A stretch of 48,852 nt of DNA, taken from contig CAWVRN010000032.1 of the NCBI GenBank assembly GCA_963932905.1, forward strand, positions 1-48,852, written 5' to 3'. The DNA is from an uncultured Bdellovibrio sp. Lineage in GTDB: Bacteria > Bdellovibrionota > Bdellovibrionia > Bdellovibrionales > Bdellovibrionaceae. Below the pieces are notes generated by a model. The model saw only the letters and a program-made list of their open reading frames with translations, was not told the DNA's origin and searched no databases. The stretch's first letter is position 1; the number at the start of each line of letters is the position of its first letter. Below, piece by piece: positions 1,718 through 31,288 of this stretch. The translations under genes were made by a program, and so were the position numbers.

Positions 1718-1723
1718 GATAAC

Positions 1724-11076: not shown

Positions 11077-11120
11077 TCGAGGTTGAATATTAAAGGTTTA
11101 ACGACGTATAATCAATTCAA

Positions 11121-12368: not shown

Positions 12369-12372
12369 AGTC

Positions 12373-14672: not shown

Positions 14673-14721
14673 TCTTATTTTTCCTATATCAGTGGCTCTT
14701 TCAATATCTTAGCAAGATTTT

Positions 14722-14735
14722 TTACATCGATGTAA
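14722..14735. promoter_or_regulatory. Perfect palindrome upstream of the kinase gene
   Basis: TTACATCGATGTAA, 14 bp. Confidence 0.35.
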
Positions 14736-15044
14736 TTTTCCGTTTTTGTCGTTTTTGTTTACAACCCAAATTTCAAAGAAATTGACTTAAGTTTTTACTA
14801 AATCGGCGGCGTTTCTACAAAAGAGTGTAAAAAAAATTAAAGACTGAAGCCTGATGAGGCAGGCAACAGAAATTAAACCAGCATGCAGACTTTGCACTTG
14901 GCCAATAACTGTCCGAGACCACAGCAAAAAACGTAAACGCGAAAAAAAGTGAAAATTTTTTCGTGTAATCTCAAGATTTTACGAGGGTTCGTCTCATTAT
15001 GATATAGGACAGCTAATTGCAGTTATAGAGTTAAAGGAGGCCCT

Positions 15045-15416
15045 ATGAAGATGTTATTGGTGCTTGTGGTATTTATTGGATTCGGATTTGGTTTTCATGC
15101 AGCTAACGCCACAATGAGGTCGCTAACACCGCAAGAACAAGCGGCCACCTGTTACCCGTCGTCACCGATGTTGTATTCAGATGCTTGTGGAGGCGTTCCC
15201 TTTATGGGAGGATTTCCGCAAAGTAGCAACTATCAGACTCAGCAAAACGATCCGTTTTCACAGATGTATGTGTTGATGAATGCACTTCAAGGGCAAACCG
15301 GCGGTGGAGTGGATGCGATGATGGGACTGAATCTAGATCCCACTATGATGTGGCAACATAATAGTCCGATGGGAAATTCTCCCATGTTAAATGCGACTGC
15401 ACCTATCGTACGATAA
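15045..15416 (+). CDS. Secreted Met/Gln/Pro-rich hypothetical protein
   Basis: AAGGAGG SD; signal peptide ending 'ANA'. Confidence 0.75.
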   Translation: MKMLLVLVVFIGFGFGFHAANATMRSLTPQEQAATCYPSSPMLYSDACGGVPFMGGFPQSSNYQTQQNDPFSQMYVLMNALQGQTGGGVDAMMGLNLDPTMMWQHNSPMGNSPMLNATAPIVR

Positions 15417-15422
15417 CCTGTC

Positions 15423-16799
15423 TTATGCCTTGGCCGCTTTTGCTAAATTAAGAACAGTATTTAGGTCTAAAGGAATTTGCGAAGCCATTACTTTTTCTTT
15501 CATTTCAATTAACGCGCTGGTGGCCGTTCTTTTGTTTTGATTTTTTGTCAACGCTGTCATGGTTTGAAATTCGTAGGCAATACGCAGGATGCGTGGCAAA
15601 AGTTTGATCGTCGCGGAGATGTGGTTAGGAAAACCGGAGCCGTCCATATTTTCACGATGTTCAATGATGGTATCTGCCACTATGGGCGGTAGAGGCACCT
15701 TTTTGCTTTTAATCATAAGCACTGATTTTTCAGGATAGGTGTAATACATGGTCAATTGATCTTGGGATAAAGTTGAAACGTCCGTCTGCAATTCAAAATT
15801 GTCTATATAGCTTAAACCAATGTTATGAAGGAGTCCGGCTAAAGCTAACGATTCGATTTGTTCAGATCCCAGATTCAGCATATGACCAAACATAGCGGAA
15901 AATACGCATAAATTGATGGCCTCATTATAAAACGTTCGCTCTTGGCCCGCATAACGTAGTACTTTGGCAAACGCTTCTTGAGTCGTGTGAGGCTTAAGAA
16001 GATCGTAATCTTGAACGATTTCACGGCAACGTTCATAAATGATTTTTCCGCCTTTAAAATCGGTACTTTCTTGGTCGAAGAATTCAGACATGATTTCAAA
16101 GATCAGTTTTTTTGATTTTAGAGCACGCTCCGTTTCGGCAACGGGGTTATCTTTGTTAGCTAAAGTTAGAGCCGTGCGGGCGTATTCTAGGAATTGTTTC
16201 TTTTCTGTTTTTTTAAAATATAAACGTTGGTCTTGTGATTCTATTTTCTTAACTTTATTAGTTTCTAACACTGCACCCTTTTTCCGGTACAGGATTGTTT
16301 TTTTATTGTAAGGCAAGTGAACAAAAACATCAAAATTGATTTCAAGATCCGAACTTAAATCACCACTATCAATTGAATTCAATGCGGATAAGGGTATCTG
16401 GCTGTCAGGAAAATCGTAAGGAATAATTTCTAACAACAGCTCGATAATGAATTCCTTATCAAAATTAAAATGGATCAGCCGATCTGCGCCATTTTTTCTG
16501 ATGGATTCAAAATTTAACGGCGTGGACGTCGTGTGGAATACAATCAGAGGAATTTTCTCAAAACTCATTTTAAGAGTCTGTGTCCATTCTTGGACAGGGC
16601 CTTGTCCTAAATTTCCGTCGATCAAAAATAGAAAAGGATGTAAAGTATCGGTAATTTCTGTGAAGGCATTTAAGTCTTCGGCACGTTCAAATTTAAAATC
16701 GGGGAAGTCGGCCAGAAGTTCGGTGACGCGTGTTAAAAAAAAAGTGTCTTTGGAAATTACAAAGACACTTTTCTGAGTTGGGGCGGTGCCACCGTTCAT
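15423..16799 (-). CDS. Degenerate receiver-like + HD-GYP domain protein
   Basis: N-terminal REC-like 'FLFLIDG..GAD'; 'LLHNIG' (HD to HN), 'HRENMDGSGFP'. Confidence 0.8.
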   Translation of the reverse strand: MNGGTAPTQKSVFVISKDTFFLTRVTELLADFPDFKFERAEDLNAFTEITDTLHPFLFLIDGNLGQGPVQEWTQTLKMSFEKIPLIVFHTTSTPLNFESIRKNGADRLIHFNFDKEFIIELLLEIIPYDFPDSQIPLSALNSIDSGDLSSDLEINFDVFVHLPYNKKTILYRKKGAVLETNKVKKIESQDQRLYFKKTEKKQFLEYARTALTLANKDNPVAETERALKSKKLIFEIMSEFFDQESTDFKGGKIIYERCREIVQDYDLLKPHTTQEAFAKVLRYAGQERTFYNEAINLCVFSAMFGHMLNLGSEQIESLALAGLLHNIGLSYIDNFELQTDVSTLSQDQLTMYYTYPEKSVLMIKSKKVPLPPIVADTIIEHRENMDGSGFPNHISATIKLLPRILRIAYEFQTMTALTKNQNKRTATSALIEMKEKVMASQIPLDLNTVLNLAKAAKA

Positions 16800-16816
16800 A
16801 AAAATTATTCTACTAG

Positions 16817-17311
16817 TTAGTAAACTGAGATTTCAATGTAGAACTCAGTTTGATTTGATAGTTTAAAAGGAATCACGAGTGTCGCTGATTTAGAGTGTTG
16901 TAACATAATGAATTGACCTTTGATCACCGTAGGGATCGCCATTTCAAAATTATAACCTAAATCATTTAAAGTACCTTTTGCACTTCCGTAGATCATATTG
17001 GTTAATTCACCAACAGCATCAAACACTTCATCAGTGATATCGCTGTATTTTTCACCCAACATGTTTTCTAAGATTTGCAAGATCGCAGGTTTAGGGAAGC
17101 TTAATGTAAGGGTCGCTTTATACTCGTTAGAGACCATGCCCACGACGCCGGCAACTTCTCCACGGGCAGAGAACTTTTGTTCCACAAACGGTTTCCCGAA
17201 TGTCACTTTCGTGCTGGCCATTGTTTCAAGAGTTTTAGAAACACCTTCAATAAATGAATTAATTAATGTCTTATCCAAAAGTGGATTTTGCATTTTAGGG
17301 GCCGCTGTCAT
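16817..17311 (-). CDS. cheX: Chemotaxis phosphatase CheX
   Basis: 'DAVGELTNMIYG' (E-x-x-N), 'IPTVI'. Confidence 0.92.
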   Translation of the reverse strand: MTAAPKMQNPLLDKTLINSFIEGVSKTLETMASTKVTFGKPFVEQKFSARGEVAGVVGMVSNEYKATLTLSFPKPAILQILENMLGEKYSDITDEVFDAVGELTNMIYGSAKGTLNDLGYNFEMAIPTVIKGQFIMLQHSKSATLVIPFKLSNQTEFYIEISVY

Positions 17312-17328
17312 TTTAATCCTCTTTTAGC

Positions 17329-17742
17329 TTAGGCAGCTTGGTTGTTGGTTTTAGCATAAACTTTTTCAAGCTTAGCTTTTAAGGTAGCCGCATTAAATGG
17401 CTTAACGATATAGTCAGAAACGCCCGCTTTGGCCGCCTCTAAAATCTGTTTTTGCTCACTTTCTGCTGTTACTAGCATAAAAGGAACTTTGGCAAACTTA
17501 GGGTCTGCTTTGCAGTGTCTTAGTAAATCGATACCCAGCATTTTAGGCATATTCCAGTCAGAAATAATGAACTGGAACGGTTGTCCTGCTTCGTGGGCCT
17601 GTTGAATTAAAGGTAGAGCGGTCGCGCCGTCATCAGCTTCCTCGACTTGAGTGTAACCAAGTTCGGTTAAAATTTTTCTGATAATTTTTCGCATAGTAGC
17701 GAAATCGTCGATCACTAGGAACTTCGTATTGGCTGGGAACAT
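17329..17742 (-). CDS. cheY: Chemotaxis response regulator CheY
   Basis: 'VIDDFATMR', 'SDWNMP', 'VTAE', 'YIVKPF'. Confidence 0.93.
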   Translation of the reverse strand: MFPANTKFLVIDDFATMRKIIRKILTELGYTQVEEADDGATALPLIQQAHEAGQPFQFIISDWNMPKMLGIDLLRHCKADPKFAKVPFMLVTAESEQKQILEAAKAGVSDYIVKPFNAATLKAKLEKVYAKTNNQAA

Positions 17743-17781
17743 ATTATCTCCTGTATAAGATACTATTGTGAATCTATGATA

Positions 17782-17808
17782 CGATCGGTCTAGTTTTTGA
17801 AAACTGTA
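17782..17808 (-). promoter_or_regulatory. Putative sigma28 (FliA) promoter for cheY-cheX
   Basis: Minus strand TACA-N15-ACCGATCG versus consensus TAAA-N15-GCCGATAA. Confidence 0.5.
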
Positions 17809-18074
17809 GTCTGGGAAGCTTGCTTCAAAAAAAAATATTGTGCAGACTTAGACTCAGGTGGTGTGTTTCTCAACTTTCAACGGGGGGTCTAAAGTCGTTT
17901 TTTCAGCTAGATAGCAGAGGAAAGTTCAGTCTGAGTCGGGTTTGTCCAGGATGGGTAAATCGGGAAATCCAGAAAAACGGACTAAAGTTATCAAAATGAG
18001 AAAATGTTAGATTAACCGAAAGTCAGGGAACAAAGGTCTTAAGTTTAACAACAATTTAGCGGGAGGGAGCAAGG

Positions 18075-18479
18075 ATGCTCAGAGATACATTAATTCAGAA
18101 GGGACTTTCAAACAGAGAGTCAGAAGTAGCGGAACTAGTTTCTAAAGGTCTTTCAAACAAGGAAGTTGCAAACCAACTATTTGTTACTGAAAAGACAGTA
18201 AAATTTCACTTAACTAACATCTATAAAAAGATGAACGTTAAATCTAGAGCTCAATTGATCGTTTGGTGCCTTCCGCATCTTGGATTCTCAGCTGATGATA
18301 ACAGAATCGAGAACAATGCAGCTATCCAAACTCAAAACATTTCTAATCAGTTTGGTGCTCAACAAACACAGACAATTCCAGCAGGTAGTTCAACAGTAGC
18401 GGCTCCAACTTTGCCAGCTTCTGCAAGCCAATTGAACCGTGGTTCAGGTAATTCTGATATCGGCGCAATGGGTATGTAA
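18075..18479 (+). CDS. LuxR-type HTH regulator with low-complexity C-terminal tail
   Basis: 'LSNRESEV..GLSNKEVA..LFVTEKTVKFHLTNIYKK'. Confidence 0.9.
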   Translation: MLRDTLIQKGLSNRESEVAELVSKGLSNKEVANQLFVTEKTVKFHLTNIYKKMNVKSRAQLIVWCLPHLGFSADDNRIENNAAIQTQNISNQFGAQQTQTIPAGSSTVAAPTLPASASQLNRGSGNSDIGAMGM

Positions 18480-18495: not shown

Positions 18496-18963
18496 ATGCT
18501 TCAATCAAAACCGGTATCGGCTTCTGAAGTTATAATGACCCAGCTGGTTCTACCGATTCATATTAATTCGTTAGATACAATATTCGGCGGTACTATCATG
18601 TCATGGATAGATATCGCCGCAGCTATTTCTGCTCAACGACACTGCAATCGCGAAGTCGTCACTGCCAGCATCGATCAATTGTCATTTTATGCGCCAGTTA
18701 AGAAGGGTTGGGTAGTAAACCTAAAGTCCAAGGTTAACTTTATCTCAAGAACTTCAATGGAAGTTGGCGTGCAAGTCACGGCGGAAAATCCTCGTTCTGG
18801 AGAATTGTTTCACACATCGTCCGCTTATCTTACGTTTGTCGCTTTGGATTCCAACAGTCGTCCAACGACGGTGCCGGAATTGATCTTAGAAACTGACGAG
18901 GATCGTCGGCGGTTTGAAGAAGGCAAGGCTCGCCGAGCAGCTCGTCTGGCTAATCGCAAATAA
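18496..18963 (+). CDS. Acyl-CoA thioesterase (hotdog fold, YciA-like)
   Basis: 'IFGG.IMSWID..A', 'VVTASID', 'TSMEVGV', 'TFVALD'. Confidence 0.92.
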   Translation: MLQSKPVSASEVIMTQLVLPIHINSLDTIFGGTIMSWIDIAAAISAQRHCNREVVTASIDQLSFYAPVKKGWVVNLKSKVNFISRTSMEVGVQVTAENPRSGELFHTSSAYLTFVALDSNSRPTTVPELILETDEDRRRFEEGKARRAARLANRK

Positions 18964-19279
18964 CTTTCAAATGAAATTCTGCTTTTTTGTTCCGGGGGAG
19001 GGAATTCTTTCCTGGGGGTCTTTCTTTTTCTTCGATTTGGTGGGGTAAGGCGAGGGGACATTCTTTGAATGACTTTTGTATTTTTTGGAGGGCGGCCATC
19101 GTGGCCTCAGCACCCGGTTCGCTGCGCGAACAATACAGCATCCTGCTGCGGGTGAGCCTCCAAAAAATACAAAAGTCATTCAAAGAATCTCCGAGCTTGT
19201 CTTTGGAAATCGAAGAAAAAGAAAGACCCCCAGGAAAGAATTCTGCAGGAAATGGTGGGAAGAATTTCATTTGTAAGTT
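18962..19279. repeat. Nested inverted repeat (three stems of 19, 37 and 32 bp) with a multi-hairpin core
   Basis: 18962-18980/19261-19279 (1 mismatch), 19002-19038/19207-19243 (perfect), 19060-19091/19157-19188 (perfect). Confidence 0.95.
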
Positions 19280-19474
19280 TTTGAAGGTTGGGTTGCCTTC
19301 GTTTTACTTAGTTTGGCGCTTATAGGCTGCGAATTCTTTCTGGTTCCTCTGCTTTTTTGTGTTCATCTGTATAGGTTTTATGCATCTATAACTGCAATAA
19401 CTTAGTTTCCGCTATTAAATGGAATAATTTGGATTTGGCATGATTTGCACTGTTTTGATTGATGAGGTGATTGT

Positions 19475-19753
19475 ATGAAGGCTAAATTAGGTGTTTTTTT
19501 TCTGTCGTTGTTGTCTTTAATTTCTATTGGGTGCGTGTCTATGAGTTACTCTTCATCGATGAGTAATGGGGAAGTGAAGCAGACGATTTGTGCTCAAGGA
19601 GAGTGTCGCACATTGTATGGAATGGGACGAATTGATTATGATCATAATGCTAAAACAGTAACCGTCACGTGCCGAGGCGCTGACCCCGTCGTATTTGCGG
19701 CCAATCAAGTGCAGAGTTACAGTTGCTCAAATGGTTCGGTGGTTCCACAGTAA
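19475..19753 (+). CDS. Small Cys-rich lipoprotein
   Basis: GAGGTG SD; lipobox 'ISIGC'; four further Cys. Confidence 0.7.
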   Translation: MKAKLGVFFLSLLSLISIGCVSMSYSSSMSNGEVKQTICAQGECRTLYGMGRIDYDHNAKTVTVTCRGADPVVFAANQVQSYSCSNGSVVPQ

Positions 19754-19760
19754 AATTTAA

Positions 19761-20018
19761 GAACTGGCTCCTTAGCTTGCGGCTAAGAAGCTAAAATCTA
19801 TTGGAAAGACAGTTGTTTAGCTGAAATTTAAAAGCGCTGTCTTGAAACAGCTTTTCAAAAAAAAATTATTATCCGAATTAACTCGTAATACATTCGAGTT
19901 TCGATCCCTCAAAAAAGCGAGCGTGTTGAATCTTTCTGGATTTTAGAGAGCACGTTTTAAATTCACTTGATTTGGCGATATTTTACCTGGCCTTAGCCGC
20001 AGGCTAAGGGGCCAGTTC
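19761..20018. mobile_element. 258-bp MITE/REPIN-like element, copy 1
   Basis: 27-bp terminal inverted repeats (19761-19787 / 19992-20018, 2 mismatches), each with an internal hairpin; second copy at the window end. Confidence 0.8.
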
Positions 20019-20101
20019 AAGTGGGTTTTCCCCAAGATCAAGGACTAGAACCCCTCGTAACTGCAAAGCCGTTTTGTTTTAGATCCCGACCTTCCGCTAA
20101 T

Positions 20102-20128
20102 ACAAATTTGTCTCGAATCCACCGATAG
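20102..20128 (+). promoter_or_regulatory. Putative sigma28-like promoter of the T1SS operon
   Basis: ACAA-N15-ACCGATAG just upstream of GTG 20137. Confidence 0.4.
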
Positions 20129-20136
20129 ATAACCTA

Positions 20137-21399
20137 GTGGGAAATCATAGGAAAATCCAAAGTCAGAAACATTTTTTCAAAGATAATCAAATATCTTGGG
20201 CTGCTGTTGATGCCGTGGCTGAAGGCCCGTCGTTCTTAAGTCAAATGGGCGTTGCCTTTCTATTTCTGTTTGTAGTTTGCTTTTTTATCTATGCTAATCA
20301 AGCCAAAGTTCCCGTTGTTGTAGAAGGTCCCGGCCGAGTGGTGTCTTCGTTGCCTTCAGTACCTTTGCGTTCACAAAGTACTTTTACTGTTGCGAACGTG
20401 AATGTTCGTGACGGTGAATTTGTAAAACGTGGGCAAATTCTAGTCACTGCGAAAGAAAGTTTAACTCCAGAGAGTATTGATTTGCTTAAGAGCATGATCA
20501 AGGGCCTTCAAATCATCAATGAGCTTGATGACAATGCCTTATGCTTGAATTGTCGTACGTTGTTGCAGCAATTGACTCAGATTTATTTAAGCATCAAAGT
20601 TCAGGGTGAAATGGTGACCTTGCTTTCAAATTTGAACGATCAAATTCGACATTTGAACTCGGTGGTAGATGCGTATAATGACATCGAAAAAAGTGTTACG
20701 ACAACACGGTCACAAATAAAAAATGCGCAAAGGAAATTGAACGATATTGTCAAACGTAAGGCGCATATAGCACAAGCCAAAGACGTGGAAGAACTAGAGA
20801 GCTACATTGAGCGCGAAACAAACTCAATTGCTGATCGGTTCCGCCAGGGTGCTACGCAAATTAAAGATGTCCGTCGTACCTTGAAAGCACGTACGAAAGA
20901 ACTTATCGATCGAACTGAACAAATTAGCAAGACCTATGCGGTACAAGCGCCGATTGACGGTAAAATTTCAAATTTGAAAATCAAAGGAACCGGCGAGCTA
21001 GTTTCCGCAGGACAAGAATTGATGGAATTAATCCCAGCCGCCAGTTCAAACATCGCATTGATTGAAGTTCTAAACCGAGATATTTCGAATATCAAAGTAG
21101 GCGACGAAGTTATTATTTCTATCGATTCAATGCCAGAATTAGACTTTGGTACTATCACGGGTAAAATCATCGACGTGATTTCCGCCGACATCGAAGAAAA
21201 TATGCGTGGTCCTGCCAATACGAATTTTAAAATTAAAGTTTCAATTCCAAGAACCTCACTTTCAAATGGTACGGGTGAACGACCTATTTTATTAGGGATG
21301 AATCTAAAAGGCCGTATTGTAACGCGTTTTGAATCGTTAGCTAAATCTATTTATCGCGTATTATTCAGAGTAAAAGAAAATGTAAAGGTAAAACAATGA
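20137..21399 (+). CDS. HlyD-family membrane fusion (periplasmic adaptor) protein
   Basis: TM anchor, 'VRDGEFVKRGQIL', coiled coil, 'VQAPIDGKI', 'VSAGQELMELIP', 'FGTITGKI'. Confidence 0.92.
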   Translation: MGNHRKIQSQKHFFKDNQISWAAVDAVAEGPSFLSQMGVAFLFLFVVCFFIYANQAKVPVVVEGPGRVVSSLPSVPLRSQSTFTVANVNVRDGEFVKRGQILVTAKESLTPESIDLLKSMIKGLQIINELDDNALCLNCRTLLQQLTQIYLSIKVQGEMVTLLSNLNDQIRHLNSVVDAYNDIEKSVTTTRSQIKNAQRKLNDIVKRKAHIAQAKDVEELESYIERETNSIADRFRQGATQIKDVRRTLKARTKELIDRTEQISKTYAVQAPIDGKISNLKIKGTGELVSAGQELMELIPAASSNIALIEVLNRDISNIKVGDEVIISIDSMPELDFGTITGKIIDVISADIEENMRGPANTNFKIKVSIPRTSLSNGTGERPILLGMNLKGRIVTRFESLAKSIYRVLFRVKENVKVKQ

Positions 21400-24300
21400 G
21401 CCATGCTTATCAAGAGGATCAGCCTACCTTATTGTCACCTAACTTCGCATTCGAGTCGAAAACAGTCGAAGAGATGTACACCAATGGTCTAAAGGAGACC
21501 AGCTTTCTAAGATTTTTTCCAGAAAAAGCAGAAGCCATTTTATCATTAGGACAAGTGCGTACGCACGGGCGCGGTGCTTTGATTTTGCAAGGACGCCAAC
21601 GCCTAGATGTACTGATGATGCCGTTAAATACGCCGTTGCAGATTAAAGTTTCTAGCGAAAATATGGGCTTAAACAAAATCATTGATACGGTGGAGCCAAA
21701 CGAATTGATCGGTTTCCGCGAAGTTCTTGAAGGGACAGAATATCCGTTTGTTATTCAATCATTATATGGAGCGGCGTCGATATTTAGTATCAGTCGATCT
21801 GATTTCCTAAGCGTTTTCACCGACCAAAATGACTTAAAAAAGATCGCACTTTTGACAGCGTCAAAAGCATTGTTGCATTTCTTTAATTGGCTTCTGGATC
21901 ATGATGTTCCATTAGAAAGTATTCATGCATTAATGCGAAGTACGATCGAGAAAATCCAAGTCGAAAAAAATACACCCATCCAATTGAAGCGAAAGTCTTT
22001 GATTTTTATTGAAGATGGTGTGATGTCAGCAGAACGCCTGAATGGTATCGATAGTATCAAAGTTAAATTACATCGCGGCCACTGGTTAGGGGCTTCGTAT
22101 TTTCCAGAAAACAGTCAGCGCCGGTTTGAATTTAAAGTCGAAGAAGCCGCGACCCTATTGTTGATTGATCTTCAAATTTTAATGACTCATGTACCACAAG
22201 CCGTATTGGGAAAAATGGTAGCAGAGCCGATAATTATGAGCCTAGTTAGTAAATTTGACACGACGGTTGAAGTCGCGACTTTGGCATTTGCGCCGGAATC
22301 TGGCAAAGCATCTGATTTTGGCTGGCGCGTAGATGAAAGTAAATTTAGAAAGACGACGGAAGCTGCGTCTTTTGCATTTACTAATTTGTGGAACTTGCTT
22401 GTTTTCCTTGAATACAGTGCGAATGAAAAACAAATCTTAGCTTTGGCAAAAGCAAAATCGTTCTTAAATTTAGGATCAACTGCACAAATCTTAGAAGACA
22501 TGGGGTTTGTCTGCAATATTATCCGTATTCCCACAGGAACAGAATACTATCCTGATTTTCCAATGGTTCACTACGCGTTGGGGCGTCCATTTTTAGTTTT
22601 AAAAATGGCTAAAGACCATGTCCTATGCATGGATCCAGAAAATGGAATTGTGACATTGTCGCGGGAATATTTTTCGTCCGCGGGAGCCCACTATTTTTTA
22701 CAAGTGACAGAAACTCATATTAAAACGATTACTAAAACATCGGCAAAAATTTCGCAATTAAAACCAGAAGTGGCTGGTAAAATGCTTTTGAATTATTTCT
22801 TTAGTTTAAATAAAAGCGAATTTAGAAATGTATACATTTTTAAGATGTTCCAGTCGGTAGCGATTTTGGCAGTGCCTGCCTATTTACTGGGTTTAATTAA
22901 TCAGACAGTCGGTTTAAATAAAATGGATCACATGGATTCCTATATTTCAGGTCTATGCATTTTCATTCTATTCCAAGTCACTGCTATTATCGCGTACAAC
23001 TATTTTTCGAGCTCCATTTCGGCGACGTTTAAATCAGACATTCAGCCGTTTTTTTTTCGACTATTTTTGCAGCAGCCTACAAACCAAGTTACGGCCATCA
23101 AATCTGGCTTGATTAAATCTCGCATTCAAATGGTCGAGTTCGTGATGTCGGGCTTGCGGGCGAATCAAATCGAAATCAAACAGTATTTACTTACTTTATT
23201 GGTGTGTTTGCTGTCGATTGGATTTTTTGTGTGGCAGTCCGCGGCCGTTTTGCTTGCCTTTGCGTTGGTTGGAGTTGTCGTGGTGGCGTACCTACGTCGT
23301 AACGGTGATTCAGAAGAACTAAGTGCATCCCAAGCGCGACAAGAACTAAACGATTTGATCACCGATTTAGTAAAAGGTTTTGAAAGCATCAAAGTCAGTC
23401 GCGCCGAAACCTGGATGCAGGAAAAAATCAAAAGTAAATTTATCAGCGTTAGTCGTTCAACATTAGCATTTTCAAAATCAAATTCAGGATACAATTTCAT
23501 TGGTCGTGCTATTTTTCAAACAGGCATTGCGTTATCCTTGTTTGTTGCCGTCGACGAAAGCTTGAAAGCCCACGTATCGGCCCATAGTACCATGGTTCTA
23601 ACGATGTTCTTTAACTATTCGTTAGGCCCATTTTTGGGTTTGTTGACTGTATTTTTTAATTTTCAAATGCAAGGTCTATACAATATGGCCGGTCAGTTTT
23701 TGAAAATGGACAATTCAGAACAATCAAAAACGTTAAAAGTTGTTTCACTAGACGGAAACATTCGTTTTGAACGAGTCAGTTTTCGTTACAATGATAAATT
23801 GCCTTTTGTATTACAAGATATCAGTTTCACGATTAACGAAGGCGAAACGATCGCGATCGTGGGACCCAGCGGATCGGGTAAATCCACATTGGCGCGCCTC
23901 ATTGCAAAAATGACAGAGCCAACAGCGGGCAAAATTTTCTTTGATGAAATCGACGCGCGCACAATTAATCCTGTCTCGTTCCAATCACAAATTGGTTTTG
24001 TGGCACAGACGCCAACATTGTTTTCTGGCACCATCGCGCAGAATATTTCTTTAAGTGATGATGTGATTGATTCTAACGCTATTTTAAATGCAGCTCGCAT
24101 ATGCGGCGCCAATGCCTTTATCGAAAAACTACCCGGTGGTTATGCGTATAAACTAAAAGAAGGTGGGCGTGGATTGTCTGGCGGTGAACGTCAGTTAATC
24201 GCGATGGCTCGTATGTTCTATTCCGATCCTAATATTATTGTATTAGATGAAGCCACTGCATACTTAGATAAAATGACTGAAAACGGTGTGTCTGATAGCT

Positions 24301-24485
24301 TGTCAAAAACAGCGGAACAAAAAACAATCGTGTATGTCGTTCAAAATATTTCCATCGCAAAACGGGCAGACCGCATCTTGGTGGTGAAACAAGGTCGCAT
24401 TATAGAGTCAGGCAATCATAATTATTTATTATCCTTGAATGGTGAATACGCAGAACTGTATCGTAATCAGGTGGGGTTTAACTAA
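21396..24485 (+). CDS. HlyB-like type I secretion ABC transporter with cNMP-like and inactive C39-like domains (subunit A)
   Basis: 'GPSGSGKS', 'LSGGERQ', 'IIVLDE'; TM domain; C39-like 'FPMVH..LVL..MDPENG' without catalytic Cys/His. Confidence 0.88.
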   Translation: MSHAYQEDQPTLLSPNFAFESKTVEEMYTNGLKETSFLRFFPEKAEAILSLGQVRTHGRGALILQGRQRLDVLMMPLNTPLQIKVSSENMGLNKIIDTVEPNELIGFREVLEGTEYPFVIQSLYGAASIFSISRSDFLSVFTDQNDLKKIALLTASKALLHFFNWLLDHDVPLESIHALMRSTIEKIQVEKNTPIQLKRKSLIFIEDGVMSAERLNGIDSIKVKLHRGHWLGASYFPENSQRRFEFKVEEAATLLLIDLQILMTHVPQAVLGKMVAEPIIMSLVSKFDTTVEVATLAFAPESGKASDFGWRVDESKFRKTTEAASFAFTNLWNLLVFLEYSANEKQILALAKAKSFLNLGSTAQILEDMGFVCNIIRIPTGTEYYPDFPMVHYALGRPFLVLKMAKDHVLCMDPENGIVTLSREYFSSAGAHYFLQVTETHIKTITKTSAKISQLKPEVAGKMLLNYFFSLNKSEFRNVYIFKMFQSVAILAVPAYLLGLINQTVGLNKMDHMDSYISGLCIFILFQVTAIIAYNYFSSSISATFKSDIQPFFFRLFLQQPTNQVTAIKSGLIKSRIQMVEFVMSGLRANQIEIKQYLLTLLVCLLSIGFFVWQSAAVLLAFALVGVVVVAYLRRNGDSEELSASQARQELNDLITDLVKGFESIKVSRAETWMQEKIKSKFISVSRSTLAFSKSNSGYNFIGRAIFQTGIALSLFVAVDESLKAHVSAHSTMVLTMFFNYSLGPFLGLLTVFFNFQMQGLYNMAGQFLKMDNSEQSKTLKVVSLDGNIRFERVSFRYNDKLPFVLQDISFTINEGETIAIVGPSGSGKSTLARLIAKMTEPTAGKIFFDEIDARTINPVSFQSQIGFVAQTPTLFSGTIAQNISLSDDVIDSNAILNAARICGANAFIEKLPGGYAYKLKEGGRGLSGGERQLIAMARMFYSDPNIIVLDEATAYLDKMTENGVSDSLSKTAEQKTIVYVVQNISIAKRADRILVVKQGRIIESGNHNYLLSLNGEYAELYRNQVGFN

Positions 24486-27400
24486 TGTTATTTGGTATAA
24501 ACTCTTACATTAAAGTTATCAAAGGATCGATGCTGGCATTTGTGTCAGATGCTGATTTGCAAAAGGTATTAAAAGATGCCCAAATTCAAAAATCTGATCG
24601 TGGTCAGCGATTGCAGCGTGAAGACCTTCCCGGGTTTTTATATTTAGTGTTAGATGGCGAAATTTCTTTGCGTTCAAAAAGCGGCCCAGAAATGGATCGC
24701 ATGAAAGTCGGCCGTACGTTAGAACTTCGCCCACTTATGTTGGGCGAAAAAGCGTGGCAATATGACTGGGTTGCCGAAACCAGCTGTGTGTTTCTACGCA
24801 TTCCGTGGGGGCCATGCCAAGAAGCGCTGAAAAAAAATGCGGAAGCGTATAGTTACCTAGGCCGCATGTCGAGTTCCGTTATTTTGCAAAAAACCAAACG
24901 CGACATGCGTGGTATTGGAATGACCTACGATTCGGTCGTAAAAATTGTTTCCAAATTAAAATTTGATGGAATCGAAACGATCGTAGGCAAAGTTAAAAAC
25001 AAAGTGTTCTGTATAGTTCAGCAAGGTGAAGTGTACGGCTACGTAGAATTGAATTCACAAAAGCGTAAAGTGGTTACTTATCAAGCGGGTGATGCGATTC
25101 TATTTGATTTACTGCAAACTACGGTTCAATACAAAGGCAGTGAGAATAACAAACTATGGTATATGCCGGAATCAGACTGGGTTGAATCTGGTTTGGGTGC
25201 CGAGTTTAGAAAATATTTAGAAGTTTTCATTCATGGTGGTCAGCGAATGAAAACAGCTGACGCGGACGAGCCTACGTACATCGGCGAGACGGCATTGGCG
25301 GCAAAACCGGCTGAGCGTGAATATGTAAAAGTGGGCGACAGTGAACTGGATCCAAAAACGAAGGCGAAATTTTATTTATGGAAATTTTTCCCGCCATTCA
25401 TGGAGATCAGCTATGGTGATGATCGCAGTCTAGTATCGATCATCGCGACGTTGTCGGCGCAAATGGGGTTCCCAATGGGGCACAAGCGCGCCGATGCTAA
25501 AGTAAAAGGTTTAATCAGTACACCATCACTAGATAGCTTAGAAAAATTCAGTAAAGCTCTTGGTTTTGATTGTAAGTTTTTATTTTTCGAACAAATTCCT
25601 CAGAATGAAGCTATCTGGCCATTTATTGTTCATCTGGATAGTGGATTGAAAATAGTATTTGCTACGATGGGAGATGAGGCTATTGTCGGTGATCCCGAAA
25701 CGGGATTGGTTAAAACAGAAAGTCTATCTGATTTGCAGTCACGTCGTGTGGATAAACGGGCAATTTGTTTATTGCCAGGCAAAGGAATTAAAAAACGTCC
25801 TGATCCAGATGTTCCGACGGAGTCCTTCATTGAAATGTTATTTGAAAACAAGAAATGGGTAGGGTTGTTTTTTGCGGCCGGTATGTTGGGGTATTTATTT
25901 GAATTAATTCTACCTGTTTTGATTCAGTACCTGTTTGATAGCGTTATCATGGCGCGTGAAACTCAGCTGTTAGGTCCTGTAATATGCGTGTATCTATTTT
26001 TCTCGATAACCAGTAGCTGGCTAAGTAGTTTCAGTCAGAAACTGACTTCTGATATTGGTGCGAACTTTGTATTGAGCTTAAAAAATCGAATTTTGCGTCG
26101 TGTTTCCATTTTGCCAATTGAAACATTCCGAGGTTTTGGAACATCCGGAATACTAAGTCGCATTGCTGAAGTTGATCAAATGGGTCAAGTTTTAACAGCG
26201 GGAGTTTTCAATAGTATTCTAAGTGTATTTTTAATCGTGGGTTCACTAAGTGTTTTGTGGCTGTATCACCCGACATTAGTGTTTGTCGTAGTGGCCGCCG
26301 TTCCGTTCGAAATGGTATTTTCATTCTTGTTTCGCAATCGGATAGAACGACTTAAAGTTGATGATTCACGTATACGTTCGCAAGAAAATCGTATGCTGAT
26401 GGAACATTTCACATCGGCAGAAGATATGAAATCATTAAAAGGTCAGCTGACAACTCGGTGGCGCTGGGAATTGTTGGCTGTATCGGCCGCTAAAAATTTG
26501 AAGCAGCTTGGGATTGTGAACTCACTATTCCAAGTGATTCATTTCGTAGTGGGTGAAGGCGTAAAAATTTTCTGTCTATTAATCGCGTTGAAGCTGTACA
26601 CGGAAGGTAGCTTGTCTTTGGGGCAAGTTATCGGTACGGCATTTTTAGTTCCGAAAATCTTTTCACCATTGCAAAATTTGACAACTCATTTCTTTCAGTT
26701 TTTGTCTATCAGGCCAACGCTTTCTATGATTAATGATTTTATTTATTCGCCGGTCGAACTTTTGGACGAAGGCGCTATTCCTAATAATCAAGAAAAGTTA
26801 ATGGGTGGTATTGAGTTCCAAAACGTAGAGTTTAGTTACGATTTGAATCCGACTTTAAAATCAGTCAGTTTTAGAATCAATCCAGGTGAAAAGGTAGCTA
26901 TCCTAGGGCCAACAGGTTCTGGAAAATCCGCTATCGCCAATCTGATGGCGGGTCTTTACGAACCCAACGTGGGTGAAGTAGTACTGGATGGTCGTCGTGC
27001 TGATCAATGGCCGTTAAGGTTTATTCGTTCGTCATTTGGATTAGTGTCGCAAGAAGGTTCTCTCTTTGGCGGAACTATCATTGAAAACATCGCTCTTGGC
27101 GAAACGTCTCCTGACTTTGAGAAAGTGCAGCGAGTGGCGGAACTAGTCGAAATGGATGACGAGATCCTGGCTAAGCCAGGCGGATATGATTTTGTATTGC
27201 AGCCAGGTGGCCTAGGGGTCAGTGAGGGGCAGAAGCAGCGTCTACTGATAGCTCGAGCACTTTATCATGATCCTTCGATACTGTTGTTTGACGAAGCGAC
27301 CAGTTATTTAGATCCCAGTTTAGAGAAACGTATCGTGGAACGCGTACTAAGGATTTATCGTGAAAAAACAATCGTATTTATCACGCATAGAACACACCTG

Positions 27401-27529
27401 GCGACGAAAGTAGACAAGGTTCTATATCTTGAAAATGGCAAACTTGCTGAAGATGGCAATCACCGTGATCTGATTTCTAATCACCAAAAGTATTACGACT
27501 TCTATGTTTCTCACTTGGGTGTTGGTTAA
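24485..27529 (+). CDS. HlyB-like type I secretion ABC transporter with cNMP-like and inactive C39-like domains (subunit B)
   Basis: 'LYLVLDGEI' cNMP-like; 'WPFIVH..GDPETG' C39-like; 'GPTGSGKS', 'VSEGQKQ', 'LLFDE', 'ITHR'. Confidence 0.88.
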   Translation: MLFGINSYIKVIKGSMLAFVSDADLQKVLKDAQIQKSDRGQRLQREDLPGFLYLVLDGEISLRSKSGPEMDRMKVGRTLELRPLMLGEKAWQYDWVAETSCVFLRIPWGPCQEALKKNAEAYSYLGRMSSSVILQKTKRDMRGIGMTYDSVVKIVSKLKFDGIETIVGKVKNKVFCIVQQGEVYGYVELNSQKRKVVTYQAGDAILFDLLQTTVQYKGSENNKLWYMPESDWVESGLGAEFRKYLEVFIHGGQRMKTADADEPTYIGETALAAKPAEREYVKVGDSELDPKTKAKFYLWKFFPPFMEISYGDDRSLVSIIATLSAQMGFPMGHKRADAKVKGLISTPSLDSLEKFSKALGFDCKFLFFEQIPQNEAIWPFIVHLDSGLKIVFATMGDEAIVGDPETGLVKTESLSDLQSRRVDKRAICLLPGKGIKKRPDPDVPTESFIEMLFENKKWVGLFFAAGMLGYLFELILPVLIQYLFDSVIMARETQLLGPVICVYLFFSITSSWLSSFSQKLTSDIGANFVLSLKNRILRRVSILPIETFRGFGTSGILSRIAEVDQMGQVLTAGVFNSILSVFLIVGSLSVLWLYHPTLVFVVVAAVPFEMVFSFLFRNRIERLKVDDSRIRSQENRMLMEHFTSAEDMKSLKGQLTTRWRWELLAVSAAKNLKQLGIVNSLFQVIHFVVGEGVKIFCLLIALKLYTEGSLSLGQVIGTAFLVPKIFSPLQNLTTHFFQFLSIRPTLSMINDFIYSPVELLDEGAIPNNQEKLMGGIEFQNVEFSYDLNPTLKSVSFRINPGEKVAILGPTGSGKSAIANLMAGLYEPNVGEVVLDGRRADQWPLRFIRSSFGLVSQEGSLFGGTIIENIALGETSPDFEKVQRVAELVEMDDEILAKPGGYDFVLQPGGLGVSEGQKQRLLIARALYHDPSILLFDEATSYLDPSLEKRIVERVLRIYREKTIVFITHRTHLATKVDKVLYLENGKLAEDGNHRDLISNHQKYYDFYVSHLGVG

Positions 27530-27606
27530 TACTAGGTTCAAAAAACAATCGGCCGCCAAGCAGCAGCCGATCGATTCTTTGAAGTTTAATTTAAATATAG
27601 TTGCTG

Positions 27607-27954
27607 TTATTCATCTTGATCAAAACGAGTTGCGATATCAGTAGGCAAGCTATCTACGACGGCTACATGTGAAGCATCAATAGTGTTGTTTACATAAGGA
27701 TGACCTTCGCTATCGAATTGAATAGCGTCTGTTTGAGCGATGAAATCAGAAACAGGTTCAACGGCAGCAATATTTTCACTTTCACCTGGAAAGCCTTTGT
27801 TAAATGAAGCCAATATTTCGATATCGGCAAATCCGTTTTGCTGGCTGAAAAGAGAACTATCGCCTTCTGTGTGTGTTGCCTCAGGTGTAATACCTAGGTG
27901 ATTTGCAGAATCAACATCCATCTGAAATTTATAATCATTTTCGTCACCAAACAT
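27607..27954 (-). CDS. Small, very acidic hypothetical protein
   Basis: 115-aa ORF with GGGGG SD-like run; D/E-rich; no signal peptide. Confidence 0.65.
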   Translation of the reverse strand: MFGDENDYKFQMDVDSANHLGITPEATHTEGDSSLFSQQNGFADIEILASFNKGFPGESENIAAVEPVSDFIAQTDAIQFDSEGHPYVNNTIDASHVAVVDSLPTDIATRFDQDE

Positions 27955-28196
27955 GGAACCCCCGTTTGTTAGAATTATTTTTTACTGTGTTCAGTATATC
28001 AAACAATTCGCTTATAAAAAGGTCCGGTATCAAGATAGGACACGTATCGTACTGAGAATCACTACGACTTTCTAGCTAGTTGCACTAGTCACCTGTCATC
28101 AGGGTGAACAGGTGTTATGGGCAATGACGAGTTATTTTGGGAACCGCAAAAATAAAAAGGCCCAAGCACCAGAACTGATGCTTCTTTCCTTTAGAT

Positions 28197-30242
28197 CTAA
28201 AACTTTGCGGTCATTCCCATCTTGTCATACAAGAAAGTCCAGATCAGCGTCTGGGCTTTCCACGCAATAGTGTTCTGGTATTGAACCGTCGTCATGAAGT
28301 GACCAGAATTGGGAAGTGAAACCAAATGGACATTGTCAGGAGTCGTAGAATGATGTTTCAACGCATGAGCAATTTTCAATGAGTGCGCCATGTTTACGCG
28401 CGAATCATTGCGGCCATTCATGAATAACATGTGTGGCGTTGGCGATGGCATTTGCGCCCGGAATACTGGGCTCCATTTTTTCAAGTAAGCTAATACGCCG
28501 GGTTTGCGACTGTCGCCATATTCATATGCCCAGCCGTCACCAAACTGAGCATCTAAAGCTTCTTTGCGTAGTTGATCGTTCACGCCGTTACCAGAAACAA
28601 CAATACCAATAATGTCTGGGTACAATAATCCCGTCGCAGAGACCAGAAAACCTCCGTTAGACCAACCTTGAATCGCCGTGATTGCTGGTGAGGATAATTC
28701 CATGGCATGAACTAGCTTGGCAGTGGCCACAAAGTCTTCCATCGTTTTGTGCTTGTTTTCAAACATCGCTGATTCATGCCATTTTTTACCGAACTCGTTG
28801 CCGCCGCGCAGAGCTGGTCCGGCGATGATTCCACCATTTTTAATAAACTGCGCATCCATTTTAGCATTGAATGAATTCATATAACCGGCGGACATAAAAC
28901 CACCATAGCCATAGATCAATAATCCATTTTTACCGTCGCGCTTTAAATCTTTTCTGTAGGTCAATCGCACGGGAATGCGTGTCCCGTCTTTGCTGGTAGC
29001 CCAGTGAATGGCGCTAGTGAAATCAACGCCATCAAAACTCATCATTTGTTTTTCTAGAGTTGGATCTAGGTAGCGTTTTTCTTTTAAAGAGTATTTAAAG
29101 GTTACACCTTGTTTAAAGTGGCTGCTAACCACGACGTCAACGATGTCACTGTCGGATTTAAAATTAACCGAATTTTTTAAACAGCACGATGGCGCAGGGA
29201 TCGAGGCGATTTCTTTGCCAGAGTAGTCCAAAATCTTGGTAACAATAGTTGGTCCCCAGAACGTATTAACTGAAATATGATTTTCGTGGAATTGAACCGA
29301 TTCAATTACAGTGTTTTTAGGTGTTTCAAATAACACCGACCAGCTGTTTTTGTCGCCTTGGCGACTATGACGTAAAATCTTGCCTTGGTTTTGCCATGAA
29401 TCGTTGGCAAAGATCATTGTGTCGCCGTTTTCACGTACGTTCAATGCACCGATTTCAACATCGGTATTGAAAAATGATTTAGGTAGAAATATTTTCGGTT
29501 TATCTTTAATGCGCAAGTGGGCGTGGTTGCCTTCGAATTTAACGTAGGCATTTGTGTCTACGAACATCAGGGATTCGTTTTTAACGATGAATGTTGCGCC
29601 CGTTTTTAAATTGTAGGTAGTCAGCGAAGGGCCCTTTTCACCACGTAGTTTTTTTTCTGCATTTAGGAAAAATAATTCGTGATCATTTTTCCAGGCGATT
29701 TGTTGACCATCGATTTGGAAATGTTGAACGACTTTCTGAGCTTTTAAATCGTAAATATACATCTGGAAAATATCGATATTACCGTTATCGGTAGCTGTTA
29801 AAATAACATGGCTGTCGTTAGGTGAGGCATACACTTGCAGTAAAGAAAACGAGCCATCGTGTTTGATCGTTGTTGTGTCTAGGATCTGTTTTCGTCCTGA
29901 TTCAGTGACTCGGAACAATGCTTGCGGTTTATTAAGTCCCATAAAACGCAGTTCGTAGCTGGCTTCTGGGCTGGCATCCGCGCTAATGGTCGTTGGCTTC
30001 GAATTCAGGCTTAATACGACATCAGAAATCGTCGAATAGTTCCCGGATTCACGTAGCTTCCGTATAGAATCGCCCGATTCTTTGCTGACCCAGGCGTCTC
30101 TGATGAGCGAATTTTTTTCTAACCAAAGGGCATATTTTTCAGCTGGTTCTTTATAGAATCCTACGCAGGAGTTAGATTCAGCTACAGCGAATTGAGTTAA
30201 AACAGAGATAAATGTCACGGCATAGAGTCGCCAAAATCGCAT
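28197..30242 (-). CDS. Secreted prolyl oligopeptidase (S9A)
   Basis: 'SKDGTRIP', 'YGYGGF', 'RGGNEFG..WH', 'GWSNGG', 'NDSRV', 'SGH'; signal peptide. Confidence 0.92.
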   Translation of the reverse strand: MRFWRLYAVTFISVLTQFAVAESNSCVGFYKEPAEKYALWLEKNSLIRDAWVSKESGDSIRKLRESGNYSTISDVVLSLNSKPTTISADASPEASYELRFMGLNKPQALFRVTESGRKQILDTTTIKHDGSFSLLQVYASPNDSHVILTATDNGNIDIFQMYIYDLKAQKVVQHFQIDGQQIAWKNDHELFFLNAEKKLRGEKGPSLTTYNLKTGATFIVKNESLMFVDTNAYVKFEGNHAHLRIKDKPKIFLPKSFFNTDVEIGALNVRENGDTMIFANDSWQNQGKILRHSRQGDKNSWSVLFETPKNTVIESVQFHENHISVNTFWGPTIVTKILDYSGKEIASIPAPSCCLKNSVNFKSDSDIVDVVVSSHFKQGVTFKYSLKEKRYLDPTLEKQMMSFDGVDFTSAIHWATSKDGTRIPVRLTYRKDLKRDGKNGLLIYGYGGFMSAGYMNSFNAKMDAQFIKNGGIIAGPALRGGNEFGKKWHESAMFENKHKTMEDFVATAKLVHAMELSSPAITAIQGWSNGGFLVSATGLLYPDIIGIVVSGNGVNDQLRKEALDAQFGDGWAYEYGDSRKPGVLAYLKKWSPVFRAQMPSPTPHMLFMNGRNDSRVNMAHSLKIAHALKHHSTTPDNVHLVSLPNSGHFMTTVQYQNTIAWKAQTLIWTFLYDKMGMTAKF

Positions 30243-30517
30243 ATGTACGTCCTTAGAAAAGGAAGCATCCTAAACCAAAGCCAGACGAAATTCTAATGTA
30301 GAGTTTTAGACGAAATGACCTTCTGTGACCATGTCTCCGGTTGAGACGCGACGGCAAAAAAGGTCATTTTTGGGGTGAGGGTAACACTTCTGAAAATCGT
30401 TTCAGGATGAGATTCTCTTGGCAAACAGAACAGATAGACAACTTGGCACGACTCTTAATTGTGGCCTATGAATCGCACAGTATTAAGACAAAGCCCTTCA
30501 AAATGAAGGAGGAGATT

Positions 30518-31288
30518 ATGAAAAAACAGTTACTATTATTAACAGTTCTAGCGTCGATGGTTGGTGTCGGTTGTTCAAATAAAACAAATACGGCAACTCC
30601 GCCTGTAGATGCTACAGTGACTACAAATCCAGCGGTTGATCCCGGCACTCCAGGTGGTGGTGGTACTGATGGAGGATTGTCAGACGGTGGTGGCGATACG
30701 GTTGATTTCACTCCTGTCAGCTTCTCGATCTTTAATGCTTATGTAGGAACACACCCGATCAACAGTCCTAAGAACATTAAGATCTCGGTAAATCTATCAG
30801 AGGTCGATACGACTCTTAAATTTGCGGGATCAGTTAAGATTTCATACGAAGACAACGGGCAAACGTTCACTGGAACTTTTGAATCAGGTGCAGACAAGAA
30901 TCAAAATATCAGTGGTTTGAAAGATAACGATGTTTATGAATCGATATACAATTTTTGGTATCGCAATCCAGCAGACGGCAAAACAGTATTCTCGGGAATG
31001 TTCCAAGATGCTTTAGGTTCGATCGTACTTGTAATCGATAAATCGGTAGACCAAGGCGATGGCCAAGGCACTGGATATGTCAGCGGTTCTGTGTACTTTA
31101 AGAACTTTGCTCAATCACAAGCGACGCAAAGTCCGTATCGTAAATGCTGGTTCATCTACACAGGTCCATACGATTGCCGATCTTCAGAAGTGATTAACAA
31201 GAGCTCTTTAACCCTTGGGACTCAAGAGGGATATAGAAAGCTAGGAACATTTACAGGTTTATCGAAAGCGAACGCATTTAATTTATAA
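30518..31288 (+). CDS. Lipoprotein, hypothetical
   Basis: AAGGAGGAG SD before ATG 30518; lipobox 'VGVGC'; Pro/Gly linker. Confidence 0.85.
   Translation: MKKQLLLLTVLASMVGVGCSNKTNTATPPVDATVTTNPAVDPGTPGGGGTDGGLSDGGGDTVDFTPVSFSIFNAYVGTHPINSPKNIKISVNLSEVDTTLKFAGSVKISYEDNGQTFTGTFESGADKNQNISGLKDNDVYESIYNFWYRNPADGKTVFSGMFQDALGSIVLVIDKSVDQGDGQGTGYVSGSVYFKNFAQSQATQSPYRKCWFIYTGPYDCRSSEVINKSSLTLGTQEGYRKLGTFTGLSKANAFNL

What the first reader, a model, noticed from the sequence alone, without database searches (positions are those of the whole stretch)
20137..27529. Type I secretion operon with two cNMP-domain ABC subunits that look like an obligate asymmetric heterodimer
Seen: hlyD-like gene followed by two coupled ~1000-aa ABC genes. 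Each has N-terminal cyclic-nucleotide-binding-like segments and a C39-like domain lacking the catalytic Cys and His. Subunit A has a normal signature (LSGGE) but its H-loop His is replaced by Gln ('VVQN'). Subunit B keeps the His ('ITHR') but has a deviant signature ('VSEGQ'). Established: each ABC ATP site pairs Walker A/B and H-loop of one subunit with the signature of the other, so both defects fall in one composite site, as in heterodimeric exporters such as TM287/288; classical HlyB is a homodimer. Inference: a heterodimeric, possibly nucleotide-gated, non-processing protein exporter. No TolC or RTX cargo lies in the window.
Basis: partly seen in the sequence, partly recalled or inferred. 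Interest (0 to 1): 0.75.

Follow-up and report, generated by a model that had tools for sequence, protein, structure and literature searches.

The report
Secretion pump pair shedding ATP sites
A Bdellovibrio-family bacterium carries a three-gene protein-secretion set whose two different pump subunits likely pair up with one standard and one altered ATP site, and its relatives show a series from two standard sites to none, which would give a natural test of how such secretion machines are powered.

Summary
Observation confirmed: hlyD plus two coupled ~1000-aa ABC genes, each with tandem CNB folds, a C39-like domain lacking Cys/His, TMD and NBD; A has LSGGE/VVQN, B VSEGQ/ITHR. The parts are known: long-type CNB-C39-ABC exporters (HetC) and two-ABC T1SS (RtxB/E, NHLP cassette). 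A heterodimer is likely: B follows A in 15 of 15 orthologous loci, and A and B form separate clades. 'Obligate' is unproven: SEGQ occurs in 65 stand-alone exporters, H>Q is tolerated in MRP1, and both Walker B glutamates are intact. cAMP/cGMP gating is unlikely (no canonical phosphate-binding cassette). New: the family spans a series. Outgroup pairs have near-canonical NBDs and an active peptidase. The window has one consensus site. Four of 10 single-contig pairs have none, and one of them has lost catalytic motifs in both subunits. A tree suggests that the window lineage regained A's consensus signature. TolC is unlinked here but in-operon in one relative. A 115-aa acidic leaderless ORF downstream (7/7 versus 0/3 congeners) is a candidate cargo. 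New variant of a known kind.

The parts
20137..21399 (+). hlyD-type membrane fusion protein, 420 aa, one TM helix at residues 33-51
   Evidence: PF13437 E 2e-14, TIGR01843 E 4e-35; TM scan; dN 0.05 / dS 1.36 against G521
21396..24485 (+). ABC subunit A, 1029 aa: CNB-CNB-C39-like-TMD-NBD; consensus signature LSGGE, H-loop Gln
   Evidence: dN 0.037 / dS 2.26 against G521
21456..22259 (+). two CNB-fold domains of A (about residues 21-288) with non-canonical phosphate-binding cassettes
   Evidence: fold search Z 16.2; alignments; canonical motif from PMC2246266
22347..22715 (+). C39-like domain of A, no catalytic Cys, Arg at the His column
   Evidence: alignment with catalytic PCATs; orthologues hit PF03412
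24174..24188 (+). A signature LSGGE; completes site 2 with B's Walker A/B and His968
   Evidence: tree suggests it was regained in this lineage
24342..24344 (+). A H-loop Gln983 (site 1)
   Evidence: Gln in 18, His in 5, Ser in 2 of 25 A-clade rows
24485..27529 (+). ABC subunit B, 1014 aa: CNB-CNB-C39-like-TMD-NBD; signature VSEGQ, H-loop His
24497..25258 (+). two CNB-like domains of B; the first has an invariant Trp where the cAMP-binding Arg would sit
25382..25789 (+). C39-like domain of B, no catalytic Cys, invariant Gly387 at the His column; active (Cys+His) in outgroup B subunits
27224..27226 (+). B signature Glu914 (site 1)
   Evidence: Glu in 21 of 22 B-clade rows
27386..27388 (+). B H-loop His968 (site 2)
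   Evidence: His in 14, Gln in 7, Ser in 1 of 22 B-clade rows
27546..27573 (.). terminator-like hairpin (12 pairs) between B and the convergent orfX
   Evidence: a consensus match only (14 found against 9.4 in shuffles)
27607..27954 (-). orfX: 115-aa acidic protein (23 D/E, 3 K/R, no Cys, no hydrophobic leader); candidate cargo
   Evidence: found in 7 of 7 congeneric genomes with the operon and 0 of 3 without; dN 0.081 / dS 1.06; directly upstream of hlyD on the same strand in G525

Best explanation
The three genes encode an HlyD adaptor and two long-type ABC half-transporters without an active peptidase, which likely assemble as an A+B heterodimeric type I secretion engine with one consensus ATP site and one attenuated site, and likely export an unprocessed protein through a TolC encoded elsewhere. 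Shown: domain layout, motifs, gene order, loss of the C39 catalytic residues and purifying selection. Inferred from established NBD geometry: site 2 (B's Walker A/B and His968 with A's LSGGE) is the power site, and site 1 (A's Walker A/B and Gln983 with B's SEGQ) binds ATP and hydrolyses it slowly or rarely, acting as a hinge as in TM287/288-type exporters. Inferred from the tree and outgroups: the system descends from an A/B pair with near-canonical NBDs in which B was an active C39 peptidase; B's peptidase was lost, both sites drifted from consensus, and this lineage regained A's LSGG. The C39-like domains would hold the unfolded cargo as in HlyB. The CNB domains likely sense a ligand other than cAMP/cGMP or act as spacers. 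The cargo is likely acidic and leaderless; orfX is the best candidate here (about 30%).
For: B lies directly after A in 15 of 15 orthologous loci whose contig reaches past A, and hlyD directly before A in 13 of 13 that reach that far. A (25 rows, SH-aLRT 99) and B (22 rows, 100) are separate clades with motif columns removed. A and B are only 26% identical over 713 aligned residues, so this is not a recent duplication. Outgroup pairs L123 and L135 share the A/B layout and B's N-terminal W-x-Y-x-W motif, with LSGG/VSGG signatures, Glu and His, and an active C39 in B. G525 has orfX-hlyD-A-B-tolC on one strand (PF02321 E 4e-8); G570 has a convergent homologue of that TolC (E 2e-24). Two-ABC T1SS needing both ABCs are known (RtxB/RtxE). 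HlyB needs its His for secretion (H662A), which makes one consensus site meaningful.
Against: No physical or predicted interaction was obtained. SEGQ is compatible with stand-alone exporters (65 loci, selected by that very pattern), and H>Q can be silent (MRP1), so site 1 may be active and homodimers are not excluded. G525 has His in A. Four of 10 single-contig pairs have no consensus site, so a consensus site is not a family requirement. The site-2 covariation rests on one or two independent changes among kin. orfX is confined to the genus and was not found in seven more distant operon-bearing genomes, which are 74-97% complete; its co-occurrence may reflect synteny among kin.
Confidence: 0.55

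Rival explanations
1. The deviations are close to neutral: both composite sites hydrolyse ATP, and A and B form homo- and heterodimers, possibly mixed within an HlyB/HlyD-like ring of three dimers. The pair is co-required for cargo recognition or assembly, not for ATP-site complementation.
For: Walker A Lys 25/25 and 21/22, Walker B Glu 23/25 and 21/22, Q-loop 24/25 and 22/22 are kept. Signature position 3 varies freely in A (A, V, T, M, Q, S, L, G). 65 stand-alone SEGQ exporters. MRP1 tolerates H>Q. HlyB/D holds three dimers.
Against: Glu at B's position 3 is fixed in 21 of 22 rows while A's position 3 drifts; A LSGG never co-occurs with B Gln; strict A-then-B order in 15 of 15 loci.
Confidence: 0.2
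2. The family works as an ATP-binding-gated or ATP-independent protein conduit, driven by proton motive force, folding or diffusion; hydrolysis is dispensable and the window's consensus site is a secondary refinement.
For: G513 keeps two full-length hlyD-A-B operons with wrecked motifs (A: LTLKL/DDPT/Ser and TKLNS/DEPT/Ser; B: GHNESGRH, FSPSE, DQIN, Ser), and its two A paralogues are more alike in the TMD (49%) than in the NBD (39%). G465, G578 and G404 have Gln and a deviant signature at both sites. A gating model and a PMF role are discussed for HlyB. Earlier unchecked notes describe other T1SS-like pumps without catalytic sites.
Against: In HlyB hydrolysis is essential. The window lineage keeps a complete site under strong purifying selection, and the NBD is the most conserved domain in most of the family. 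G513's operons may be decaying or have another role; no selection test was possible for them.
Confidence: 0.13
3. Export is switched by cAMP or cGMP binding to the tandem CNB domains.
For: Clear CNB folds in tandem, as in PKA/PKG; HetC's CNB domain is needed in vivo.
Against: The canonical cassette FGE..PR is absent: A1 has Phe and Tyr at the Glu and Arg columns, B1 an invariant Trp at the Arg column, B2 no cassette; A2 has Arg/Lys at the Arg column only within the genus and no Glu. HetC's domain did not bind cAMP and bound ppGpp at about 59 uM.
Confidence: 0.07
4. The operon is a decaying relic that lost its cargo and TolC.
For: No linked TolC, no RTX protein, no homologue of G525's 1769-aa neighbour in this genome; found in only 11 of 182 family genomes.
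Against: Intact frames with dN/dS of about 0.02-0.04 for A and hlyD; invariant motifs across the genus.
Confidence: 0.05

Closest known systems
HetC and the cyanobacterial 'long-type' C39-ABC exporters with an N-terminal CAP_ED/cNMP domain (PMC10986499; PMC3140520; CNB family 'AAA_Atpase' of PMC2246266)
   Same: CNB + C39(-like) + TMD + NBD in about 1000 aa; usually next to hlyD; variable cassette Arg; a Nostoc plasmid gene is already annotated 'cyclic nucleotide-regulated ABC bacteriocin/lantibiotic exporter'.
   Different: HetC has an active peptidase and an essential catalytic Glu, and no adjacent hlyD; the Nostoc plasmid protein is single with LSGGQ/Glu/His and an active-site Cys. Here there are two distinct subunits, no peptidase and non-consensus ATP sites.
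Four-component MARTX T1SS RtxB/RtxD/RtxE (PMC3034196) and the NHLP three-gene cassette TIGR03794/03796/03797 (PMC2887384)
   Same: One HlyD with two ABC exporters; TolC outside the locus; in the NHLP cassette one ABC has a peptidase and the other not, like the outgroup pairs L123/L135.
   Different: Both window proteins score far below the TIGR03796/03797 cut-offs; no RTX cargo and no double-glycine precursor found; the four long NHLP-type hits checked (two carry that name) have canonical LSGGQ/Glu/His. RtxB/RtxE motifs were not checked.
E. coli HlyB/HlyD/TolC
   Same: Inactive C39-like domain, PCAT/HlyB fold, HlyD partner.
   Different: HlyB is a homodimer with two canonical sites and no CNB domains; its cargo is an RTX protein.
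Heterodimeric exporters with one degenerate site (TM287/288, TmrAB, TAP; PMC7756269)
   Same: Two half-transporters whose deviations fall into one composite site.
   Different: The Walker B Glu, often changed in those degenerate sites, is intact here; those are not HlyD-coupled long-type proteins; relatives of this pair lack any consensus site.

Membership tests
Type I secretion system (HlyB/HlyD/TolC kind) | ABC exporter of PCAT/HlyB fold | tested here: met
   TIGR01846 and TIGR03375 are the best models though under cut-off; PCAT1 and HlyB top fold matches
Type I secretion system (HlyB/HlyD/TolC kind) | adjacent HlyD-type adaptor | tested here: met
   13 of 13 informative loci
Type I secretion system (HlyB/HlyD/TolC kind) | TolC-type outer-membrane channel available | tested here: inconclusive
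   13 OEP frames in the genome, none linked; in-operon tolC in G525, with no tblastn hit in this genome
Type I secretion system (HlyB/HlyD/TolC kind) | leaderless cargo secreted in one step | not testable with these tools
   only candidates: orfX; 1769-aa and >1138-aa acidic neighbours in G525 and G465
RTX-type T1SS | cargo with GGxGxD repeats and no signal peptide | tested here: not met
   one ORF of 8132 stop-to-stop frames has 2 or more GGxGxD and begins with a signal-like stretch; genome 98.6% complete
Peptidase-containing ABC transporter (PCAT, processing) | catalytic Cys and His in the C39 domain | tested here: not met
   kept only in outgroup B subunits
Long-type CNB-C39-ABC exporters (HetC-like) | N-terminal CNB fold before the C39(-like) domain | tested here: met
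NHLP export cassette | TIGR03794/03796/03797 above cut-off and a double-glycine precursor | tested here: not met
   scores 236-310 against cut-offs 709-853; no hit for a double-glycine leader pattern in the genome (one regular expression)
cAMP/cGMP-binding CNB domains | canonical phosphate-binding cassette FGE..PR | tested here: not met
Asymmetric heterodimeric ABC exporters (TM287/288 kind) | deviations of both subunits fall in one composite site, the other is consensus | tested here: met
   window, G521, G522, G280, G406; not met in G465, G570, G578, G513
Asymmetric heterodimeric ABC exporters (TM287/288 kind) | physical, obligate heterodimer with single-site hydrolysis | not testable with these tools

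The most novel reading that the evidence does not exclude
This is a Bdellovibrionota family of paired T1SS engines that exports proteins without needing a canonical ATP-hydrolysis site: its members form a natural series (two consensus sites with peptidase; one site; none; catalytic motifs erased in both subunits), and the window's lineage rebuilt one consensus site from an ancestor that had none. Comparing them would test directly whether type I secretion consumes ATP per step or uses it only as a gate.
Probability: 0.2. Interest if true: 0.8.

Novelty: new variant of a known kind. Interest (0 to 1): 0.5.

Why it matters
How type I secretion couples ATP to the movement of long unfolded chains is unsettled (continuous consumption versus gating, PMC5018854), and the T1SS engines studied are homodimers. 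A heterodimeric engine allows each ATP site to be changed separately, and this family offers natural pairs with two, one and no consensus sites, plus an apparent return to consensus. It also extends the long-type CNB exporters beyond cyanobacteria and poses the ligand question for non-canonical CNB domains. None of my 10 literature searches returned a description of this family or of a T1SS pair with a degenerate composite site; the library lacks most subscription papers. For the window alone the result is moderate: each ingredient has a precedent.

Tried and rejected
Complex prediction of A+B was not available, so the interaction is untested. No RNA holder was listed. Sequence searches of the N-terminal domains against the PDB gave no significant hit; only folds identified them. 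The AF2 model of A is poor beyond residue 440 (mean pLDDT 54.9); B's is usable (77.1). A first tree run did not finish. A shared leader between orfX and the 1769-aa and >1138-aa neighbours was rejected: scores -3.2 and -2.4 bits against up to 4.6 in 200 shuffles. orfX has no Pfam or Atlas hit and no credible hit outside the genus in 384 order-level genomes; one E 0.0095 match has two stops. The 314-aa gene after B in G465 was rejected as a component: it is a multicopy family in 30 of 182 genomes, absent from this genus. The 1510-aa and 1153-aa genes upstream of the G513 operons and the window's ADP-ribosyltransferase-like ORF begin with signal-like hydrophobic stretches and were not taken as cargo. 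The promoter scan was no richer than shuffles (16 against 20.9). Plasmid search gave no record covering 80% of B. Three look-ups of earlier findings were blank.
Full report
Observation. The window is a whole contig (G000:C32) of a Bdellovibrionaceae-type genome, judged from the labels of close homologues. Walker A, Q-loop and Walker B Glu are intact in both subunits. Pfam sees only weak cNMP hits and no C39 in the window proteins. Orthologues and folds settle both: 16 of 17 B orthologues hit PF00027 and 6 of 17 hit PF03412; the A model matches CNB domains at Z 16.2, rmsd 2.7 over 129 residues; PCAT1 and HlyB are the best whole-chain matches for both models. Alignment to catalytic PCATs shows no Cys and no His in either C39-like domain.

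Distribution and pairing. With the A alignment, 11 of 182 family genomes matched at E 1e-72, seven of them from this genus; an order-level search with the B alignment added more distant pairs (23 of 384 genomes matched at E 1e-95, some being single outgroup proteins). In all 15 orthologous loci whose contig reaches past A, B follows at once; in all 13 that reach upstream, hlyD precedes A. In a tree of TMD+NBD with motif columns removed (90 rows; fragments and near-duplicates dropped; quick search, LG+G4) A and B are separate clades (25 rows, 99; 22 rows, 100). Two outgroup loci (L123, L135) have the same hlyD-A-B layout with LSGG/VSGG, Glu and His in both subunits and an active C39 motif in B; other long-type proteins of the phylum occur singly with mostly canonical motifs. 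I infer an old A/B pair, once a processing exporter, that lost its peptidase in this subfamily.

ATP sites. Each site takes Walker A/B, Q- and H-loop from one subunit and the signature from the other (PMC7756269, passages). It is not the family rule. Of 10 pairs with both NBDs on one contig, five show the window pattern (G000, G521, G522, G280, G406), one has His back in A (G525), and four have no consensus site: G465 (A LSLGQ/Gln, B VSEGQ/Gln), G578 (LSAGM/Gln, LSVGQ/Gln), G570 (LSVGQ/His, LSEGQ/His) and G513-L158, where signature and H-loop are gone in A and Walker A, signature, Walker B and H-loop in B. G404, split over two contigs, also has none; G400 and G526, also split, match the window. 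Over the clades, A has His in 5 of 25 rows and Gly at signature position 3 in 9 of 25; B has His in 14 of 22 and Glu at position 3 in 21 of 22 (rows include kin and a near-duplicate). In a careful full-length tree of 23 A-type rows and 7 canonical outgroup rows, the nine LSGGE rows form one clade (95/96) nested inside six successive non-Gly lineages. One loss and one regain is more parsimonious than six or more losses; no AU test was run and the model had no mixture.

Against 'obligate'. A scan of genome contigs with a pattern that contains SEGQ returned 70 non-orthologous loci, mostly Bacteroidota. My filter found one exporter in 65, none in 5 and two in none; all 65 keep the His, 57 have an active-site Cys and 54 a detected hlyD. 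They were selected by the motif, so they show only that SEGQ does not force a partner. The review reports that His>Gln or Asn in MRP1's consensus site kept wild-type-like transport, whereas HlyB H662A blocks hydrolysis and secretion (PMC5018854, passages). Site 1 is therefore 'attenuated' by inference, not shown dead. The heterodimer rests on gene pairing, clade structure and the covariation of site-2 elements, which reflects only one or two independent events.

CNB domains. The canonical cassette is FGE[LIV]AL[LIMV]x[PV]R (PMC2246266, passages). A's first domain reads GFREVLEGTEYP (Phe and Tyr at the Glu and Arg columns); B's first has an invariant Trp there, also in outgroup B subunits; B's second has no cassette; A's second has Arg or Lys at that column only in the genus and no Glu. 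HetC's domain is essential, did not bind cAMP and bound ppGpp (PMC10986499, passages). cAMP/cGMP gating is thus unlikely; another ligand is open.

TolC and cargo. The genome has 13 OEP frames, none on this contig. G525 has orfX-hlyD-A-B-tolC on one strand and a convergent 1769-aa acidic, leaderless repeat protein; this genome has no tblastn hit to either and no RTX protein. orfX (27607-27954, -) is the second most acidic ORF in my genome screen (net -17%), has no leader and no Cys, and is under purifying selection. It was found in the seven congeneric genomes with the operon and not in the three without (83-99% complete), but in no other genus. It is a candidate, no more.

Comparison. Long-type CNB-C39-ABC exporters are described in cyanobacteria (PMC3140520, passages and Discussion; its figures and supplements not seen) and HetC. 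Two-ABC systems are RtxB/RtxE (PMC3034196, passages) and the NHLP cassette (PMC2887384, passages). The HlyB/HlyD ring of three dimers is from a preprint's introduction (10.1101/2025.05.27.656419, passages). PMC8277102 was read in passages. It works like a T1SS engine and, in this lineage, like an asymmetric heterodimer; it is not a processing PCAT, not an RTX system on present evidence and not an NHLP cassette. Earlier AI notes on other T1SS-like pumps without catalytic sites are unchecked leads; they suggest that such loss recurs, which slightly lowers the uniqueness of this case.

Verdict. Observation right; heterodimer likely (about 0.75 on its own); whole mechanism 0.55; obligate complementation and cyclic-nucleotide gating not supported. 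The most interesting result lies outside the window: a family series from two consensus ATP sites to none, with an apparent regain. New variant of a known kind, interest 0.5.

Noticed in passing
L157 (G513:C71) 1714-5972 and L158 (G513:C40) 7242-14562: Two full-length hlyD-A-B operons in one genome whose NBD catalytic motifs are lost in A and, where sequenced, in B.
   Followed up: partly
L172 (G525:C147) 2705-8014: 1769-aa acidic, Cys-free repeat protein with no hydrophobic leader and no Pfam hit, convergent with the operon's tolC; plausible cargo in that genome. G465 has a different >1138-aa acidic neighbour (L154 6701-10117).
   Followed up: partly
L188-L257: 65 stand-alone exporters, mostly Bacteroidota, with signature (L/V)SEGQ, intact His and (57 of 65) an active C39 Cys; 54 have a detected hlyD beside them.
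   Followed up: partly
L153/L172 against window 18496-31288: The hlyD-A-B block is inverted between the thioesterase and the lipoprotein gene in G525 relative to the window; G523 holds unrelated genes in that interval and G349 is rearranged there.
   Followed up: partly
L154 5719-6663: 314-aa unannotated protein of a multicopy family found in 30 of 182 genomes of the family, up to 7 copies.
   Followed up: partly
window 6959-8005 (+): ADP-ribosyltransferase exoenzyme-like domain (PF03496, E 3e-18) with a signal-like N-terminus.
   Followed up: no
window 19475-19753 (+): 92-aa ORF with a hydrophobic, lipoprotein-like N-terminus between the thioesterase and hlyD; congeners have only a short gap there.
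   Followed up: no
window 12993-18479: Signalling cluster upstream: Ser/Thr kinase with PilZ, HD-domain protein, CheX, response regulator, LuxR; partly syntenic in congeners, including G523, which lacks the operon.
   Followed up: partly
G000 C52, C33, C1:366819, C3:35056, C11:45853: Five paralogous 2600-2700-aa proteins with near-identical N-termini and different C-termini (polymorphic-toxin-like layout, by eye).
   Followed up: no
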